A stretch of 19,419 nt of DNA from a virus (lineage: Duplodnaviria > Heunggongvirae > Uroviricota > Caudoviricetes): positions 1-19,419 of IMG/VR virus record IMGVR_UViG_2645727562_000003. One strand, written 5' to 3'. Made by a program: the position numbers and the translations under genes. Every line of letters begins with the position of its first letter. Positions within the stretch are counted from its first letter, which is position 1. The notes beneath the pieces were generated by a model. It was not told the DNA's origin and did not search any database. It saw only the letters and a list, made by a program, of their open reading frames with translations. Of the stretch, positions 2,023 through 7,399 are shown piece after piece.

Positions 2023-2226
2023 TCAACTTTCTGCTCTATCAGTTATATCTTTCCCTTCGTATACTTCACCTATATTGCTAATGCTGGCAGAACATCCAAG
2101 ATGCTTGTATCTTATGATGTCCAACACGCAGTCACTACACAGCATCCGACCTGTTTCTTTAGAGTAAATGTATGTTTGATCAGCGTCTGATTCGCTAATG
2201 CCGCAGAAACAACATTCTTTACTCAT
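2023..2226 (-). CDS. Cys-rich small protein (67 aa), possible zinc-ribbon; unknown function
   Basis: ATG start overlaps the arc-like stop as ATGA (translational coupling). Cys pattern CCxC ... CxxC (C5, C6, C8, C30, C33). Confidence 0.45.
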
Positions 2227-2440: not shown

Positions 2441-2468
2441 GTGGTAAAAAATTATTCAGGGTGTGCCG

Positions 2469-2726
2469 ATGTCTGATCGTAAGTACAAAAACCCTCAAGT
2501 GAATCTGAGGCTTCCTGTAGAGATAAAGGAACGTCTTATTGAACTGGCTGAGGCTAATTCTCGTTCATTAAATGCTGAGATGGTCGCTGCACTTGAAGCA
2601 TGGACCGAAAAAAATAAACACATTCAAGCACTAGACCTTGCAACTATAGCATCACGATTGATAGATCTTGAACATGATGTTGAGAAGTTGAAATGCATGT
2701 ATGGCAACAATAAAGACGAAAGTTAG
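2469..2726 (+). CDS. Ribbon-helix-helix DNA-binding protein with C-terminal coiled-coil-like tail (Mnt paralogue, 85 aa)
   Basis: N-terminus NPQVNLRLPVEIKERLIELAEANSRSLNAEMVAALEAW parallels the RHH region of Mnt (NFRMPLEVREKLKLRAEANGRLMNSELLQIV). ATG at 2469; the track start at 2463 is GTG. Confidence 0.55.
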   Translation: MSDRKYKNPQVNLRLPVEIKERLIELAEANSRSLNAEMVAALEAWTEKNKHIQALDLATIASRLIDLEHDVEKLKCMYGNNKDES

Positions 2727-2749
2727 AGATACTAACTTGGAGTGATGGC

Positions 2750-3001
2750 ATGGCTAGAGATGATCCGCACTTTAACTTCCGTATGCCTTTGGAAGTAAGA
2801 GAAAAATTGAAATTAAGAGCCGAGGCTAACGGAAGGTTAATGAACTCTGAGTTATTACAAATCGTTCAGGATGCGCTATCAAAACCATCACCGATTGCAG
2901 GTTACCGTGACGAAGCAGAACGCATGGCTGATCAGCAAGCAGAAATTGTTAAGAAGATGGTGTTTGAAACGCTGAAGGATTTGTACAAAAAACCCACCTG
3001 A
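2750..3001 (+). CDS. mnt: Mnt repressor (83 aa)
   Basis: MARDDPHFNFRMPLEVREKLKLRAEANGRLMNSELLQIVQDALSKPSP... is near-identical to P22 Mnt as I remember it. GGAG SD about 8 nt upstream of ATG 2750. Confidence 0.85.
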   Translation: MARDDPHFNFRMPLEVREKLKLRAEANGRLMNSELLQIVQDALSKPSPIAGYRDEAERMADQQAEIVKKMVFETLKDLYKKPT

Positions 3002-3017
3002 AGGTGGGTTAATTTTT
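2991..3017 (+). terminator. Rho-independent terminator after mnt
   Basis: Stem aacccacc (2991-2998), loop tgaa, stem ggtgggtt (3003-3010), then aattttt. The mnt stop codon sits in the loop. Confidence 0.6.
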
Positions 3018-3066
3018 GCATTTACCTGGGCCATATTGACTACTTATAAAATGAGATCAATATTTA
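3016..3066 (+). promoter_or_regulatory. Candidate promoter for the YjzC-like moron gene
   Basis: TTGACT at 3036-3041 is a good -35. Possible -10 elements (AATATT 3059-3064, TATAAA 3045-3050) are imperfect or badly spaced, so the exact promoter is unresolved. Confidence 0.3.
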
Positions 3067-3100
3067 ATCGCCCAATAACGGGTGTATGTTGAGGTATATC

Positions 3101-3280
3101 ATGGCGAAAAAACCAGGTGAAAACACAGGAAAAAACGGCGGAATATACCAAGAAGTTGGCCCACGCGGCGGTAAGAAAGACAATTTTGCAACCGTCAAGG
3201 ACAACGAAAGGCTTCCACCAACAACAAAGCCAGGTCATGGCTGGGTATTGGATAAGCGAACTCCAGACAGCAAAAAGTAA
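3101..3280 (+). CDS. YjzC-like small protein (59 aa)
   Basis: MAKKPGENTGKNGGIYQEVGPRGGKKDNFATVKDNERLPPTTKPGHGWVLDKRTPDSKK; the pattern KPG..NGG.Y.EVG ... P.T ... W resembles the YjzC-like family from memory. ATG 3101 preceded by GAGG at 6-nt spacing; the track start at 3086 is TTG. Followed by its own terminator. Confidence 0.6.
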   Translation: MAKKPGENTGKNGGIYQEVGPRGGKKDNFATVKDNERLPPTTKPGHGWVLDKRTPDSKK

Positions 3281-3286
3281 TAATCA

Positions 3287-3308
3287 AGCCGGGTCACTCC
3301 GGCTTTTT
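3287..3308 (+). terminator. Rho-independent terminator after the YjzC-like gene
   Basis: agccgg(g)-tcac-ccggct followed by tttt at 3305-3308. The hairpin overlaps the stop codon of the convergent minus-strand gene. Confidence 0.55.
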
Positions 3309-3659
3309 GATATGTCGCTCGCAGAACTCAACAAGCCTGCTCATTAAGTAGCAGTAAGTCTCGTTGGCTCTTCCTGGTTCAACATCAACACCTACCCTTG
3401 AGCAGATATCGAATGCCATGTGAGCGCACTCATGGGCAATAGTAGATAGTTTGCCATTGAACACGCCTATCACATGCAAAACACCATTCTCGCTACTCAC
3501 TGTATGAGACGCTCCGTTGGCGTCCGAGTCATGCACGTCAACGCCAAGTTTTTGATGCAGGCGTTGCCATTCTGGAAAGTCTCTACAAAACACAATTATA
3601 CCGCTCTCAAAGAGCGGAACGAGCATCTTTGGTACGTTTCCAATGTTAACTTTTTTCAT
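3294..3659 (-). CDS. Small HExxH-motif protein (121 aa), putative minimal ImmA/IrrE-like zinc metallopeptidase
   Basis: Motif TIAHECAHM followed 13 residues later by E-PGR-ANETYCYLM, resembling the ImmA/IrrE HExxH ... ExxANxFxxxLL signature. ATG 3657-3659 with AGGA at 4-nt spacing; the track start at 3698 is TTG with no SD. Overlaps an antisense plus-strand reading frame (3474-3689), so the assignment is tentative. Confidence 0.45.
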   Translation of the reverse strand: MKKVNIGNVPKMLVPLFESGIIVFCRDFPEWQRLHQKLGVDVHDSDANGASHTVSSENGVLHVIGVFNGKLSTIAHECAHMAFDICSRVGVDVEPGRANETYCYLMSRLVEFCERHIKKPE

Positions 3660-3689
3660 GGTATCCTGAGCAAAACTAAGGAGGTTGGT

Positions 3690-4079
3690 GTGAAGCAATT
3701 TCTTACTGCTATGTTCTTATTCATATCTTTTGGGGCTACAGCAGAGTGCTGGGTCGTTGGAGATATGCGCGGAATAAGCTATTCAGAACGAAATAATTTC
3801 CATCCGGAAGAAGATGGTTTTAGTGGAACATTCATCATTAAGACAAACGGTGAAGATGCCAGCATCACATATTCTGGGACAGATGCGGGCGGCATGGCTT
3901 ACAAAGCATTGTCTAAAAACTCCATCATAGGAATCGGCGCGAATGGCGAAACTCAACGCGTTATCGACTCATGGGTAATACATCCTACTGGAACAGTTTT
4001 AATGTCAAAAACCATTTCCGGTTATGGAAATATGGATTCAACCAAAGCTTTTGTTGGAAAAGTAAAAAGAAAATGTTAG
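3690..4079 (+). CDS. Secreted/periplasmic protein (129 aa precursor, predicted signal peptidase I signal peptide), unknown function
   Basis: AAGGAGG (3678-3684) 5 nt upstream of GTG 3690. N-terminus MKQFLTAMFLFISFGATA followed by ECWVVG is a canonical signal peptide (basic n-region, hydrophobic core, A-x-A site). Mature protein is Gly/Ser/Thr-rich with Cys at both ends. The track's 201-aa version from ATG 3474 lacks an SD and runs antisense through the HExxH gene. Confidence 0.55.
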   Translation: MKQFLTAMFLFISFGATAECWVVGDMRGISYSERNNFHPEEDGFSGTFIIKTNGEDASITYSGTDAGGMAYKALSKNSIIGIGANGETQRVIDSWVIHPTGTVLMSKTISGYGNMDSTKAFVGKVKRKC

Positions 4080-4103: not shown

Positions 4104-6014
4104 TTACTGCTGTGTTGCCTCAGTGGCAAGCAGCGGCCTGATGGCATTCGCAGCGTTATTCAGCGTTCTTTCATAGGCTGGCGTTCCTGCTTTGGTGTTT
4201 GCCAGACGTAAGAGAGCATTCCTTGCTGCTTTGGACTCATACAAGCGCATGATTGCACCGAAACCAGATTCAAGCGCCAGTGTTGCCCCAAGAGTCGCAG
4301 TTGCGCCAATCGTCCTTATCCTGTTGGCTTGCGATTGCCCTGTCTGAGTTACAACATTTGCGATGTCTGACCTTGCTGTTTGCTGTAGAACTTCATGAAG
4401 AGCATCAAGCTCTTTCATGTGTCTCCCACTGAATATCGTGTTATAGATCTGACCGTCAGATTGCGACTTCAACTTATTTAACTCGGTAAGAAATTTTGTT
4501 GGCGAGTCTCCTGCCTTTTCTGCAATCTTGCTAATATAAGCAGCACGCATAGCGTTCTTTCCATCTTCACTAAGAGCAGGCCATATCCTCTTAATATCTG
4601 ATGGTTTTCTGCTGAATACAACGCTGTTTATTAGCTCTGGAGTAAACTCTTTTTTAGCTTTGTTGAGATTGTTCGCAATCCTTTTATTGAGAACCTTATT
4701 GAATACGTTGGAGTAGTCAGAGTTTGCTTTGACGTATCTGGCAGCCTCTCCAGCCCCCAAATACCGTGCTGCGTTATTCCTCAAATCTGAACCCATTGCC
4801 CTCTCCACGGCATCAGTTGCGGCTTTCGCGCTATTAGGAAAAACCATGGCATCTCCCTGAATACTTTCCCTTAATGCTGACCGCAACTCTCTCAATAGTC
4901 CAAAATCTACATCTGGTTTAGCAAGTTCTTCTCGCAAATCGGATAGCCCGCGAATCAAATCCTTATTTGCCACTTTCCCAAGCCTGTTAGCCCTGGTAAG
5001 CACGTTGTCGATAACCTTAATGGATTTTGATGTGTCAACAGGTGTATCTCCCATTTTAGTTGTAATGTCTTCAATAACGCTTCCGGCTGAATCCTTCCTT
5101 GACTTCAGAGAACCATACAGATCGTCAACAACAACTGATGGGCTATATTCACCATATTTCTCAAGCTGTTTTTTAACTAGCTGACTTCTTTTTGCATACT
5201 GCTCAGCTCGCTTTGAGCCTGTTCCCAGCAAAGCCCCCTCAGCATCCTGAGTAAGACCACGAGTGAAAGCATTTTTCGGCGGGATTACATCAGATGTCAT
5301 TGGTGTCACGCCCATCGATTCTGATGTGGCAATTTTCTTCGCCACTTCTGGTGCAATATCACCTTTAAAGGCAGTTATTCCACGCTCAAGCCCTTTTGCA
5401 ACAGTATTAACAGCACCACCTGTTAGCATGCCAACACCTATATCTGTTGCCAGTTTTCCCGCATCATTTTTCTCACTGTTTGCGGCGAGCGATCCGACTG
5501 CGTTTTCTGCCAGAAGACGGGTTGCGCCTTGAGTAATTCGACCAGCAAGTGTTGGCGCCTGAGTTGAAGCGCCGCCAACGCCAACAGTAGCCAGGTAAGG
5601 CAATGCCTCCGCAAACACCCTACCTTCTGTCGTTTGTGGAGTCAGAGCACCTTGCTGAAGTCCAAACGCCTGCTCTAATCCCTGAGTTGTTACTCGTGGC
5701 GCTGGTTGATATGTTCCATCGCCAATACCGAGTTTACCGCCAGCCCATGCCGCCGCGCTTGTTACAGCATCGGCAACTGATGCTGGTATATTTGCCACAT
5801 TTACACCAGCCTGCACCAGTCCGCGACCAGTTTCTTTTACTGCTTCGCCGAGGTCAGACATAAATCCATCTTGCTGTTCTACAGGCTGCTTTTGGTTTTG
5901 AGTTGGTTGATTACTGGAGGACAGAATCTGAGCAATGCGACGCGCTCCTTCTGTATCGCCTGCCGCATCAGCGTTCCTTAATGCTGTCATCAACTGTTCA
6001 CGACTATAGGCCAT
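4104..6014 (-). CDS. Ejection (DNA-transfer) protein, P22 gp16 homologue
   Basis: 636 aa, Ala/Gly-rich, last of the three ejection genes in conserved order. GGAGGG SD; start overlaps the gp20 stop as TAATG. Confidence 0.8.
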   Translation of the reverse strand: MAYSREQLMTALRNADAAGDTEGARRIAQILSSSNQPTQNQKQPVEQQDGFMSDLGEAVKETGRGLVQAGVNVANIPASVADAVTSAAAWAGGKLGIGDGTYQPAPRVTTQGLEQAFGLQQGALTPQTTEGRVFAEALPYLATVGVGGASTQAPTLAGRITQGATRLLAENAVGSLAANSEKNDAGKLATDIGVGMLTGGAVNTVAKGLERGITAFKGDIAPEVAKKIATSESMGVTPMTSDVIPPKNAFTRGLTQDAEGALLGTGSKRAEQYAKRSQLVKKQLEKYGEYSPSVVVDDLYGSLKSRKDSAGSVIEDITTKMGDTPVDTSKSIKVIDNVLTRANRLGKVANKDLIRGLSDLREELAKPDVDFGLLRELRSALRESIQGDAMVFPNSAKAATDAVERAMGSDLRNNAARYLGAGEAARYVKANSDYSNVFNKVLNKRIANNLNKAKKEFTPELINSVVFSRKPSDIKRIWPALSEDGKNAMRAAYISKIAEKAGDSPTKFLTELNKLKSQSDGQIYNTIFSGRHMKELDALHEVLQQTARSDIANVVTQTGQSQANRIRTIGATATLGATLALESGFGAIMRLYESKAARNALLRLANTKAGTPAYERTLNNAANAIRPLLATEATQQ

Positions 6015-7399
6015 TACTGCCCTCCGAGATATTTGCTAATTAATTCGTCATCGGACAATTGCTGTTGAGGTTGGCTATCGCCATAACTTGAGGAAAGAAA
6101 GCGTTTTGCCGCAGAGTTCAATGATTCACCCTTCTTAACATCCATCCCCATGATGTTTCGGTTGCGATCAGATTGTCCTGGGCTGCCATTTGCACTCATC
6201 CACTCTGACCTAAACTCGTTGAACTTCGCGTTATTACTTTCCATTTTTGCCATACCCCTTAACCATCGAGCCATGACCATTGGATTATCCGTTTCGCTTG
6301 GAATGCCTTTCCTTGCAAACTCAATATCCTTATCTGATGCAGGGCCGGGAGGGAGAAGCTTGGTTGCCTGCGCATTGGCTAGTTGGTTGAATCTAATCCG
6401 CATATCTCGGAGGTAGTTATCTTGCCCCGTAAGCTTAGTGAACATATTTTCAGCGTTACCGAACAAACCAGGAGTTGGCTTCTCCTTCTCAAGCGTGTCA
6501 GCAAGCGTTGTCATTGAATCGGCAGCATTACGACTAGCTGCCGCATCACCTGCTGATTTTTCTATAGCCTTTTCCATGTTCACTGATAATTTTGGCGCAG
6601 CATTAATAAGTTCCTCGGCCTTCTTTTGTGCCTGTTGTACTTCAAAACCGAATTTCTGCTTATCAAGTGCCAGTCTTTCTGCTGCAAGTCCGTGTCCGGT
6701 CATTGCAGACTGATAGGAAAGGTTTTGCCCCCTAATAGCCCTCGCATTCGTCATGTCATTATTGCGAATGGTTTCGTTAATTCTTTGCTGCTCCTGCTGG
6801 CGACCAACCATCTTATCCTGAACAGCAAACGCCTTTTCTGGTCCAAGCGCACCGAGAGACATAGTAGTCAGCATGTGTGATAGCTGCTCTGGATTCTGGA
6901 TACCTGTCTGAATCATCCAGTCAGCATTAGCACCAACGCGATTTAACCTGTCCTTGTTGTCAGTAATGAATTTACTGTAGGCTTCCGGTCCCTGAGAAAG
7001 AGCGACGTTAGCCCTCATGGCTAAATCGCCCATATCGTTGCGTTGCTGCTCATTAAGACCTGAAAACGCCTGTTGTGCCTGTGCAACAAACGCTGGATTT
7101 TCCTGGGCAAACTTAAATAGTCCCGATGGATCACCAGAAGCCCATGCATCAGCGTGAACCTTATTGAACGCACTAATAGCTTTCTGTTGCTGTTCCTGAT
7201 TGTAAATATCAGCAACTCCAGCCAGACCACGTAACGCGGTCAGGCCAACGTTATTTGCACCTGAGCGAGCCAGTTCATTGTTTTCGCGGATCAGACCAAG
7301 CGTTGCGTTAATGTCGCTTGCCTTTGGCGCATTCTCATTTTGCGCACCGATGCCAGCAAGAAATCCACCAGAATTAATACCCTGTTGCCACGTAGCCAT
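6014..7399 (-). CDS. Ejection (DNA-transfer) protein, P22 gp20 homologue
   Basis: 461 aa; N-terminus [20 protein letters not shown]... matches P22 gp20 from memory; position between gp7 and gp16 homologues. Confidence 0.8.

What the first reader, a model, noticed from the sequence alone, without database searches (positions are those of the whole stretch)
3294..3659. Minimal HExxH (ImmA/IrrE-like) metallopeptidase candidate next to the immI-like repressor module
A 121-aa protein carries HECAH followed by an E...ANE..Y..LM segment, which looks like the zinc-binding signature of ImmA/IrrE (M78) peptidases that inactivate phage and ICE repressors by cleavage. It sits where P22 carries sieA, close to three ribbon-helix-helix repressors. 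P22 immI is only known to use a binding antirepressor, so a protease here could be a second derepression route or an anti-defence factor. It is far shorter than typical ImmA proteins, so it may be a new minimal family.
Basis: partly seen in the sequence, partly recalled or inferred. Interest (0 to 1): 0.7.

Follow-up and report, generated by a model that had tools for sequence, protein, structure and literature searches.

The report
Small zinc-protease-like phage gene hkcC
The 121-residue ORF is a real, conserved phage gene (hkcC of HK620, also present but unannotated in several classical P22 records) that almost certainly encodes a minimal zinc metallopeptidase. It belongs to an uncharacterised family, not the ImmA/IrrE family, and it travels with a small convergent partner gene (59a), not with the repressors next to it.

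Summary
The ORF (3294-3659, minus strand, 121 aa) is real and under purifying selection. The motif is H76-E77-C-A-H80 ...

In 120 homologues at 23-78% identity, the only invariant columns are H76, E77, H80 and E100. The spacing matches thermolysin. An AlphaFold2 model (pLDDT 89) has a zincin-like order of elements: beta-sheet, backing helix, HExxH helix, Glu helix.

No Pfam, NCBIfam or PADLOC model matches the protein. No family member matches Peptidase_M78. Eighteen of 120 give sub-threshold SprT-like hits. No solved structure matches significantly.

The gene is already named: hkcC ("unknown") in HK620, and listed as a P22 gene of unknown function. P22 carries it beside sieA, not in place of it.

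It persists in HK620, which has lost mnt/arc/ant, and in siphovirus tail-gene clusters with no Arc/Mnt gene in the 6-kb flanks. So a role in cleaving the RHH repressors is not supported.

Its conserved neighbour is the 59-aa YjzC-family gene 59a. That gene is convergent, shares a bidirectional terminator and has its own conserved promoter. hkcC has no promoter of its own.

Best reading: a lytic-phase minimal gluzincin-like peptidase with an unknown substrate, possibly 59a. Interest is moderate.

The parts
3294..3659 (-). hkcC coding sequence, 121 aa, predicted minimal gluzincin-like metallopeptidase
   Evidence: ORF. PHROG 1365 at E 2e-38. 97.5% identical to HK620 hkcC and to the unannotated P22 ORF. 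Among 37 DNA alleles in 80 loci there are only 4 proteins, with polymorphic sites 2/2/26 by codon position.
3420..3434 (-). Codons for H76-E77-C78-A79-H80 (HExxH), on predicted helix 71-88
   Evidence: Read. H, E and H are invariant in 120 homologues. Helix assignment.
3348..3368 (-). Codons for A98-N99-E100-T-Y102-C-Y104. E100 is the putative third zinc ligand at the start of helix 100-116; Y104 is 95% conserved
   Evidence: E100 is invariant. There are 17-22 (mode 19) residues between H80 and E100. It aligns with the thermolysin/neutral-protease NE(166) segment in a weak phmmer hit.
3664..3667 (-). AGGA ribosome-binding site 4 nt upstream of the ATG
   Evidence: Read. Homologues begin at the same Met.
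3286..3305 (.). Bidirectional hairpin terminator shared by hkcC and 59a. It overlaps the last hkcC codons and has a strong T-tail only in the 59a direction
   Evidence: Annotated as 't mnt' in P22 and as 'bidirectional terminator tORF59A' in HK620. The stem is conserved in divergent loci.
3101..3280 (+). Gene 59a (orf59a/HkcD), 59 aa, basic, YjzC family, predicted three-stranded beta protein. It is the convergent partner of hkcC
   Evidence: It lies adjacent and convergent in every full-length hkcC-subfamily locus checked.
3036..3064 (+). Sigma-70-like promoter of 59a (TTGACT-17-AATATT)
   Evidence: The same hexamers occur upstream of 59a in L083, near-identical ones in L084, and they align across loci.
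3069..3084 (+). Stem-loop (CGCCC-AATAAC-GGGTG) at the start of the 59a leader, with stems that covary between loci
3708..4079 (+). Context only: a small gene in the slot where P22 has sieA (PHROG 2651). Its N-terminus looks to me like a signal peptide. It diverges from hkcC
   Evidence: match to residues 86-201 of the long ORF. Not similar to HK620 hkcB. The signal peptide is my reading of the sequence.

Best explanation
hkcC encodes a soluble, cytoplasmic, single-domain zinc metallopeptidase of about 120 aa. It belongs to a distinct, uncharacterised phage family that is gluzincin-like.

Inferred chemistry: H76 and H80 on the active-site helix and E100 at the start of the next helix hold the zinc. 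E77 activates the water. Y104 may help stabilise the transition state. The substrate would bind along the strand that precedes the HExxH helix (residues 59-66).

Inferred expression: the gene has no promoter of its own. It is read as part of long antiterminated phage transcripts. In P22-like phages that is the late transcript running from genes 20 and 16 through the 'ant moron' to the tailspike gene. So the protein would be made during lytic growth, not in the lysogen.

It forms a mobile two-gene cassette with 59a. That gene is convergent, has its own conserved promoter, and in P22 lies upstream of the annotated mnt terminator, so it is inferred to be expressed from the prophage.

The substrate is unknown. 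The candidate I favour is the 59a protein itself, which would let hkcC erase a prophage-state factor once lytic growth is under way. That step is speculative, at roughly 0.25-0.3 probability. hkcC is not an ImmA/IrrE-type repressor protease.
For: Catalytic signature:
- The profile search found 554 cluster representatives at E <= 0.001, nearly all 105-140 aa.
- 141 of 145 carry HExxH.
- In 120 aligned members the only invariant columns are H76, E77, H80 and E100. Y104 is 95% conserved, and the His-to-Glu spacing has a mode of 19 residues.
- That spacing and the 'NE' context are those of thermolysin/neutral protease in the weak phmmer alignment.
- Profile hits to PDB are all zinc peptidases (myroilysin, BMP1/tolloid), at E 0.1-0.4.

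Fold:
- AlphaFold2 gives pLDDT 89 and pTM 0.84, with the element order beta, beta, helix, beta, beta, helix (HExxH), helix (E100).
- 25 predicted viral structures match at E < 1e-3 with TM up to 0.82. A few are annotated SprT-like or Metalloprotease.
- 18 of 120 members give weak SprT-like Pfam hits.

Real gene:
- All 80 near-identical loci are intact, with polymorphism 2/2/26 by codon position.
- Antisense frames carry stops in nearly all divergent homologues.
- There is no hydrophobic segment: the maximum 19-residue Kyte-Doolittle mean is 1.34.

Expression:
- No promoter-like site lies upstream of hkcC in the window, L083, L084 or L089.
- Intrinsic terminators lie about 25 nt upstream of its ATG in L084 and L089.
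- Elsewhere it abuts co-oriented upstream ORFs.
- It is co-oriented with tail, late or replication genes in every locus.
- P-late polymerases are reported to transcribe through the P22 ant moron into gene 9 (PMC2629481).

Cassette:
- 59a is adjacent and convergent in the window, P22, HK620, Morganella, Rosenbergiella, Klebsiella, Xenorhabdus, Proteus, Pasteurellaceae and metagenomic loci. These span 43-98% HkcC identity and at least three genomic contexts.
- The 59a promoter is conserved.
Against: - No curated family model reaches threshold.
- I could not inspect model coordinates, so the metal-site geometry is inferred from sequence and secondary structure only.
- Expression timing is inferred from gene layout. 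[quoted passage not shown]
- The 59a link could reflect only tight physical linkage (a gap of roughly 5-30 bp and a shared terminator).
- 59a homologues occur without hkcC. More distant hkcC relatives, such as epsilon34 gp70 and members in lytic phages, occur without 59a.
- The codon-position statistic comes from loci ranked by protein identity, which inflates the synonymous bias.
Confidence: 0.55

Rival explanations
1. One reading: an ImmA/IrrE-like protease that derepresses the phage by cleaving Arc, Mnt, the Mnt paralogue or the main repressor.
Against: - No PF06114 match for the protein or for any of 120 relatives.
- IrrE-annotated viral models match poorly, at E > 0.04 and TM <= 0.41.
- HK620 keeps hkcC and 59a but has only remnants of mnt and ant.
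- Siphovirus loci L083, L087 and L089 have no Arc-family gene within 6 kb.
- Distant members occur in strictly lytic phages.
- A gene that appears to be expressed only by late read-through cannot initiate derepression.
Confidence: 0.07
2. A SprT/Wss1-like DNA-associated protease that removes tightly or covalently bound proteins from phage DNA during replication or before packaging. On this view 59a is only a neighbouring moron.
For: - SprT-like is the only Pfam family that recurs among relatives (18 of 120, best E 1e-4), and some structural neighbours carry that name.
- Distant members sit between helicase, ligase, DNA polymerase and RNA polymerase genes in Autographiviridae.
- L101 places hkcC directly after a lambda-P-type replication gene.
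- Longer family members carry Lys-rich C-terminal tails that could bind nucleic acid.
Against: - All SprT-like hits are below threshold.
- No conserved third His is present. From memory, SprT/Wss1/Spartan use His as the third ligand; here the invariant residue is Glu.
- The window protein has no basic tail or zinc ribbon.
Confidence: 0.15
3. A host-directed protease for takeover or counter-defence that cleaves a bacterial protein during lytic growth.
For: The family is widespread across temperate and lytic phages of many hosts. The gene sits in hypervariable accessory ('moron') positions next to defence or exclusion genes, for example sieA in P22 and GmrSD/HEPN in L086.
Against: There is no PADLOC hit or other known anti-defence match. 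Counter-defence genes are usually early genes, whereas this subfamily sits in late or tail operons. Nothing identifies a target.
Confidence: 0.15
4. A toxin/antidote-like pair: HkcC is a potentially harmful protease, and 59a holds it in check. That could work through the 59a protein as an inhibitor, or through convergent transcription and antisense RNA.
For: - The dependence is asymmetric: the hkcC subfamily has 59a in every full-length locus, but 59a occurs alone.
- The layout is convergent with a terminator that is strong only for 59a.
- There are precedents: the sar antisense RNA in the same region and a phage-derived metzincin/TIMP-like inhibitor pair (PMC8235301).
Against: Classical toxin-antitoxin pairs are co-transcribed, not convergent. 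The epsilon34-type paralogues live without 59a. There is no evidence of toxicity.
Confidence: 0.1
5. The ORF is not functional: a fortuitous or decaying reading frame antisense to the sieA-type promoter region.
For: It is unannotated in the classical P22 records. It overlaps the annotated P-sieA promoter in P22.
Against: 554 cluster representatives match, with invariant catalytic residues. All 80 loci are intact, with third-position polymorphism. The original P22 sequence shows only 71% identity over this ORF in the tblastn match, consistent with sequencing errors, which may explain why the ORF was missed.
Confidence: 0.02

Closest known systems
HkcC of coliphage HK620 and the unnamed or 'hkcC' ORF of P22 (PHROG 1365)
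   Same: It is the same gene: 97.5% amino-acid identity, the same position next to 59a, and the same bidirectional terminator.
   Different: Nothing differs apart from the neighbours: here there is a PHROG-2651 gene instead of sieA or hkcB. The literature lists it only as 'unknown' (PMC2629481, PMC4837284). I found no published link to a metallopeptidase.
Thermolysin-type gluzincins (clan MA(E); M4 neutral proteases, M3, M9)
SprT-like / Wss1 / Spartan zincins (Pfam PF10263)
   Same: These are small zincin domains common in phages. 18 of 120 relatives give weak PF10263 hits, and SprT-like-annotated viral models match at E 6.5e-5 to 4.6e-4 with TM 0.56-0.71.
   Different: The window protein itself has no hit. 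The invariant third residue is Glu, not the His of that family (from memory). There is no zinc ribbon or DNA-binding tail.
ImmA/IrrE (MEROPS M78, Pfam PF06114, COG2856)
   Same: An HExxH...E zincin encoded by mobile elements, here lying near repressor genes.
   Different: No profile match and poor structural match. The conserved partner is a YjzC-family 59-aa protein, not an Xre/HTH repressor. It is much shorter.
Minigluzincins (proabylysin and projannalysin, about 105-110 aa; recalled from memory, Lopez-Pelegrin et al. 2013)
   Same: Comparable size, and the same idea of a stand-alone minimal HExxH+Glu catalytic scaffold.
PF18894 'Putative phage metallopeptidase'
   Same: A phage HExxH family. 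It is encoded 4 bp after an hkcC-like gene in L102 and about 200 bp beyond the hkcC-59a pair in L090.
   Different: About 210 aa. None of the 120 family members matches it. It is a separate family.

Membership tests
HkcC family (HK620 hkcC, PHROG 1365) | Full-length sequence similarity to HK620 HkcC and to the PHROG 1365 profile | tested here: met
   97.5% identity over 121 of 121 residues. PHROG 1365 at E 2.3e-38, covering residues 1-121.
HkcC family (HK620 hkcC, PHROG 1365) | Convergent 59a/HkcD gene immediately downstream, sharing a hairpin terminator | tested here: met
   Window 3101-3280 (+) and hairpin 3286-3305. The layout is the same in HK620 and P22.
Gluzincin-type zincin metallopeptidase | HExxH conserved across the family | tested here: met
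   H76, E77 and H80 are invariant in 120 sequences at 23-78% identity. 141 of 145 representatives carry the motif.
Gluzincin-type zincin metallopeptidase | Conserved Glu on a helix downstream of the HExxH helix, serving as the third metal ligand | tested here: met
   E100 is invariant. There are 17-22 residues (mode 19) after H80, and E100 lies at the first residue of predicted helix 100-116. Its role as a ligand is inferred; the geometry was not inspected.
Gluzincin-type zincin metallopeptidase | Significant structural similarity to a solved zincin catalytic domain | tested here: not met
Gluzincin-type zincin metallopeptidase | Zinc binding and peptide-bond hydrolysis | not testable with these tools
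   This needs purified protein, metal analysis and an E77A control.
ImmA/IrrE (M78, PF06114) | Match to the Peptidase_M78 profile | tested here: not met
   No PF06114 hit for the protein at E <= 1, nor for any of 120 family members at E <= 0.1.
ImmA/IrrE (M78, PF06114) | Structural similarity to IrrE/ImmA-type proteins | tested here: not met
ImmA/IrrE (M78, PF06114) | Conserved genomic pairing with its repressor substrate gene | tested here: not met
   The conserved neighbour is 59a. Arc/Mnt genes are absent or only remnants in HK620, L083, L087 and L089.
ImmA/IrrE (M78, PF06114) | Site-specific cleavage of a repressor | not testable with these tools
   This needs co-expression or in vitro cleavage assays.
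SprT-like (PF10263) | Match to the SprT-like profile above the gathering threshold | tested here: not met
   No hit for the window protein. 18 of 120 relatives give only sub-threshold hits, with a best E of 1e-4.
SprT-like (PF10263) | Third zinc ligand is a His shortly after HExxH (feature recalled from memory) | tested here: not met
   No other column reaches 70% His. The invariant residue is E100.
Metzincin | Extended HExxHxxGxxH/D motif | tested here: not met
   The sequence reads HECAHMAFDIC: Phe and Cys occupy the Gly and His positions.

The most novel reading that the evidence does not exclude
hkcC and 59a form a two-state module. In the lysogen, the prophage expresses the small basic YjzC-type beta-protein 59a from its own promoter. 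Once antiterminated lytic transcription runs through the cassette, it silences 59a by convergent transcription. The same transcription produces a minimal gluzincin that degrades the remaining 59a protein. This would be a protease-based 'reset' of a prophage-state factor, and a previously unrecognised layer of lysogenic/lytic control in P22-like and lambda-like phages.
Probability: 0.2. Interest if true: 0.7.

Novelty: new variant of a known kind. Interest (0 to 1): 0.48.

Why it matters
P22 and HK620 are reference phages, and their immI / 'ant moron' region has been dissected for decades. Even so, hkcC and 59a remain 'genes of unknown function', and hkcC is not annotated in several classical P22 GenBank records (AF527608, AB362338, BK000583).

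Recognising hkcC as a probable zinc peptidase gives a concrete biochemical hypothesis. The family has hundreds of clusters at the 50%-identity level and occurs in both temperate and lytic phages.

The conserved cassette with 59a is laid out so that one gene is insulated by terminators and the other has its own promoter. That suggests a simple experiment on how prophage-state proteins are removed at the switch to lytic growth.

The work also corrects a tempting mis-assignment (ImmA-like repressor protease) that would otherwise spread into annotation.

Tried and rejected
- Pfam, NCBIfam and PADLOC scans of the protein gave only noise: lantibiotic hits at E 0.02-0.1.
- phmmer and profile searches against PDB gave only insignificant zinc-peptidase hits.
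- The viral-contig scan returned 80 loci that were all 98% identical. It was useless for context diversity but useful for allele statistics.
- I asked whether Gram-positive phage YjzC genes have an hkcC-like neighbour. They do not: the phiCT9441A neighbours lack HExxH.
- I asked whether phage L or ST64T, which carry the hkcC paralogue, also carry 59a elsewhere. There was no hit.
- I asked whether longer family members carry informative fused domains. They have none, only Lys-rich tails.
- I asked whether the plus-strand gene at 3708-4079 is HK620 hkcB. It shows no similarity.
- Literature searches for hkcC, YjzC, P22 RNA-seq, and phage SprT-like or anti-defence metalloproteases found no functional data.
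- I rejected the 201-aa plus-strand ORF 3474-4079 as the product, and also the TTG-3698 start (134 aa), because homologues align from the ATG at 3659.

Full report
**1. What is at the coordinates**

The minus strand carries an ATG (3659) to TGA (3294) ORF of 121 aa. An AGGA sits 4 nt upstream of the ATG.

The sequence contains H76-E77-C-A-H80 (codons 3420-3434) and A98-N99-E100-T-Y-C-Y104 (3348-3368).

The window is the 'ant moron' / immI region of a P22-like phage. On the minus strand lie the late genes (gp20 at 6014-7399, gp16 at 4104-6014) and then the target ORF. Further along that strand come an Arc-like gene (2223-2429), a 67-aa gene and ant (1070-2026). On the plus strand lie a small gene at about 3708-4079, the 59-aa gene at 3101-3280, mnt (2750-3001) and a second RHH gene (2463-2726). 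Rfam finds sar RNA at 1962-2028.

**2. It is a real gene, and already has a name**

DNA from 2731 to 3692 is 94% identical to P22. P22 has the same ORF, at 97.5% protein identity, between orf59a/t-mnt and P-sieA/sieA. It is unannotated in AF527608, AB362338 and BK000583, but annotated 'hypothetical' in newer records.

The original P22 sequence AF217253 matches at only 71% identity over this ORF. That is consistent with sequencing errors and may explain why the ORF was missed.

HK620 annotates it as hkcC, 'unknown'. [quoted passage not shown] The UAB_Phi20 paper lists hkcC as 121 aa, unknown (PMC4837284). So the premise that the gene sits where P22 has sieA is wrong. P22 has both genes, and in this window the sieA slot holds a PHROG-2651 gene unrelated to HK620 hkcB.

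Coding evidence:
- Among 80 near-identical viral-contig loci there are 37 DNA alleles but only 4 proteins.
- All 80 are intact, with polymorphic sites 2/2/26 by codon position. These loci were ranked by protein identity, which inflates the bias.
- Across divergent homologues the sense frame is open, while the antisense frames carry 2-8 stops in all but one frame of one locus.
- The 201-aa plus-strand ORF at 3474-4079 matches its PHROG only from residue 86.

**3. The family and its invariant residues**

The word-indexed search found 33 clusters at 43-98% identity. A profile search of 1.84 billion representatives found 554 at E <= 0.001 and 151 at E <= 1e-10. Nearly all are 105-140 aa.

Of 145 new representatives, 141 carry HExxH. 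The exceptions are three frameshifted or truncated sequences and one HKAAH variant.

In an alignment of 120 members at 23-78% identity, the only invariant columns are H76, E77, H80 and E100. Y104 is 95% conserved and N99 is 75% conserved. The number of residues between H80 and E100 is 17-22, with a mode of 19.

That is the gluzincin signature with thermolysin spacing. The weak phmmer hit to neutral protease and thermolysin (E 0.1) aligns HExxH with HExxH, and 'ANE' with the 'LNE' segment of the protease.

The extended metzincin motif is absent: the sequence reads HECAHMAFDIC. There is no hydrophobic segment, so the protein should be soluble and cytoplasmic.

**4. Fold**

AlphaFold2 with the 20-sequence alignment gives pLDDT 89.4 and pTM 0.84. 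The elements are strands 11-13 and 21-25, helix 28-37, strands 49-56 and 59-66, helix 71-88 (HExxH) and helix 100-116 (E100 at its first residue). This order is sheet, backing helix, active-site helix, then glutamate helix. From my own knowledge, that is the canonical minimal zincin layout.

Against predicted viral structures there are 25 hits at E < 1e-3 with TM up to 0.82. Almost all are uncharacterised phage proteins of 100-215 aa. A few are labelled SprT-like or Metalloprotease. Entries labelled IrrE appear only at E 0.04-0.08 with TM 0.28-0.41.

I could not read the model coordinates, so the convergence of H76, H80 and E100 on one site is inferred.

**5. Family assignment**

Pfam, NCBIfam and PADLOC give nothing meaningful. 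PHROG 1365, of unknown function, matches at 2e-38.

I scanned all 120 aligned members against Pfam at E <= 0.1. Eighteen touch SprT-like (best E 1e-4). Single members touch other metallopeptidase families (DUF5700, DUF4344, DA1-like, M48, Reprolysin_2). None touches Peptidase_M78. The profile search against PDB hits only zinc peptidases, insignificantly.

I therefore treat the family as a distinct minimal zincin family. It is gluzincin-like in its ligands, remotely SprT-like in sequence space, and not ImmA/IrrE.

**6. Context: the conserved partner is 59a, not the repressors**

In every full-length locus of the hkcC subfamily that I examined, a 59-aa gene lies immediately downstream. It is convergent, separated from hkcC by roughly 5-30 bp, and a hairpin terminator overlaps the last hkcC codons. 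The loci are:
- this window, P22 and HK620;
- Morganella P22-like prophages;
- Rosenbergiella, Klebsiella and three metagenomic siphovirus-type prophages, where the pair sits between the tail-tube/YdaY genes and the tape-measure gene;
- a further phage contig next to antirepressor-like and defence genes;
- short metagenomic contigs at 43% identity;
- Xenorhabdus and Proteus tail modules, and a Pasteurellaceae prophage where the pair follows a lambda-P-type replication gene.

Two partial copies, in Arsenophonus and Moraxella, lack 59a.

HK620 has only remnants of mnt and ant. L083, L087 and L089 have no Arc-family gene in their 6-kb flanks. This argues against Arc or Mnt as the conserved substrate.

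The linkage is asymmetric:
- 59a belongs to the YjzC family (weak Pfam hit; UniRef names).
- It is more widespread, with 108 clusters.
- It occurs without hkcC in S. bongori-type prophages, in non-phage contexts and in Gram-positive phages.
- The 38-42% identical paralogue subfamily lacks 59a. This includes epsilon34 gp70, ST64T orf-129, ST104 ORF47 and phage L. In epsilon34 the paralogue lies between the lysis genes and dec. In Kluyvera L102 it is followed by a PF18894 gene.
- Still more distant members sit in DNA-metabolism clusters of lytic Autographiviridae, and at the head of a cluster of small hypothetical genes divergent from the terminase genes in a Schitovirus.

59a is predicted to be a folded three-stranded beta protein, with pLDDT 86. 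It is strongly basic.

**7. Transcription logic (inferred)**

59a has a sigma-70-like promoter, TTGACT-17-AATATT, at 3036-3064. The hexamers are conserved in Rosenbergiella, Xenorhabdus, Proteus, Morganella and other loci.

A leader hairpin follows at 3069-3084. Its stem covaries between loci while the CAAT loop stays constant.

The shared hairpin at 3286-3305 has a good T-tail for 59a transcripts but a poor one in the hkcC direction.

hkcC shows no promoter-like site upstream in the window, L083, L084 or L089. In L084 and L089 an intrinsic terminator lies about 25 nt before its ATG. Elsewhere it abuts co-oriented upstream ORFs. It is always co-oriented with the surrounding long operon.

P-late polymerases are reported to read through the P22 ant moron into gene 9 (PMC2629481). 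[quoted passage not shown]

My reading is that hkcC is made only from antiterminated lytic transcripts, while 59a is a classical prophage-expressed moron. Late transcription through the cassette should then also interfere with 59a expression.

**8. Mechanism and rivals**

I am fairly confident (about 0.75) that HkcC is a zinc-dependent hydrolase, most likely a peptidase. I am moderately confident that it is expressed in the lytic phase.

The substrate is open. I favour 59a (0.25-0.3) because of the conserved cassette and the opposite expression logic. Alternatives are:
- a SprT-like role on DNA-bound proteins, supported by replication-module contexts, Lys-rich tails in longer members and weak SprT hits;
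- a host-directed protease;
- a toxin/antidote-like arrangement;

**9. Novelty and score**

The gene itself is known (hkcC), and its family exists as a PHROG of unknown function. In the searched library I found nothing describing these points:
- recognition of hkcC as a minimal gluzincin-like peptidase family;
- the exclusion of ImmA/IrrE membership;
- the conserved hkcC-59a cassette and its transcriptional layout.

I class this as a new variant of a known kind (zincin metallopeptidases). Interest is moderate: it gives a testable hypothesis in a model phage, but there is no functional evidence and no surprising chemistry yet.

Noticed in passing
window 3036-3100 (+); also L083 6557-6631 (-), L099, L100, L111, L114, L090, L101: Upstream of 59a there is a conserved TTGACT-17-AATATT promoter. 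It is followed by a short hairpin (window 3069-3084, CGCCC-AATAAC-GGGTG). The stem sequence changes between loci (GCTC/GAGC, TCGC/GCGA, GCCAC/GTGGC, CTGC/GCAG) while the CAAT loop stays constant. That pattern suggests a 5'-leader RNA structure rather than a protein operator. It also occurs with 59a homologues that lack hkcC.
   Followed up: partly
P22 records AF217253, BK000583, AF527608 and AB362338 (L001 3064-3429): hkcC is intact in P22 but unannotated in the classical records. The original sequence AF217253 matches at only 71% identity over this ORF, consistent with sequencing errors and possibly why it was missed. Some records instead extend sieA to 236 aa so that it overlaps hkcC (UAB_Phi20 table in PMC4837284; ORF L001 3244-3954).
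   Followed up: partly
window 3708-4079 (+): The slot that holds sieA in P22 and hkcB in HK620 here holds a PHROG-2651 gene of about 116-123 aa. Its N-terminus looks like a signal peptide (MKQFLTAMFLFISFGATA if the GTG at 3708 is the start). It is not similar to HK620 hkcB. It may be another exclusion-type moron.
   Followed up: partly
window 2023-2226 (-) and 2463-2726 (+): Compared with P22, the immI module has two extra genes. One is a 67-aa Cys-rich ORF (CxxC...CxxC, PHROG 7150) between the arc-like gene and ant. The other is a second Mnt/Arc-type RHH gene upstream of mnt.
   Followed up: no
L090 1330-1968; L091 1229-1867; L102 5376-6014: A PF18894 'putative phage metallopeptidase' gene (212 aa) lies close to hkcC-like genes in unrelated loci. 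It starts 4 bp after the hkcC-like gene in L102, and about 200 bp beyond the hkcC-59a pair in L090 and L091. That puts two different HExxH-type families close together.
   Followed up: no
P0131, P0149, P0116, P0072, P0066 (family members of 173-189 aa): Longer relatives consist of the same zincin core plus a coiled-coil or Lys/Arg-rich C-terminal tail. The tail could bind nucleic acid, reminiscent of DNA-dependent SprT/Spartan proteases.
   Followed up: no
L084 10241-11854; L086 2090-3958; L114 4878-6180: Defence-type genes (SNIPE/T5orf172, GmrSD_N plus HEPN_MAE) sit within a few kb of the hkcC-59a cassette, or of a lone 59a gene, in several prophages. This is consistent with these positions being accessory-gene hotspots.
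   Followed up: no
KR296686.1 33260-33415 (hit H100): In Salmonella phage 22 the 59a region is annotated as a 'tubulin/FtsZ family GTPase domain protein', which looks like a mis-annotation.
   Followed up: no
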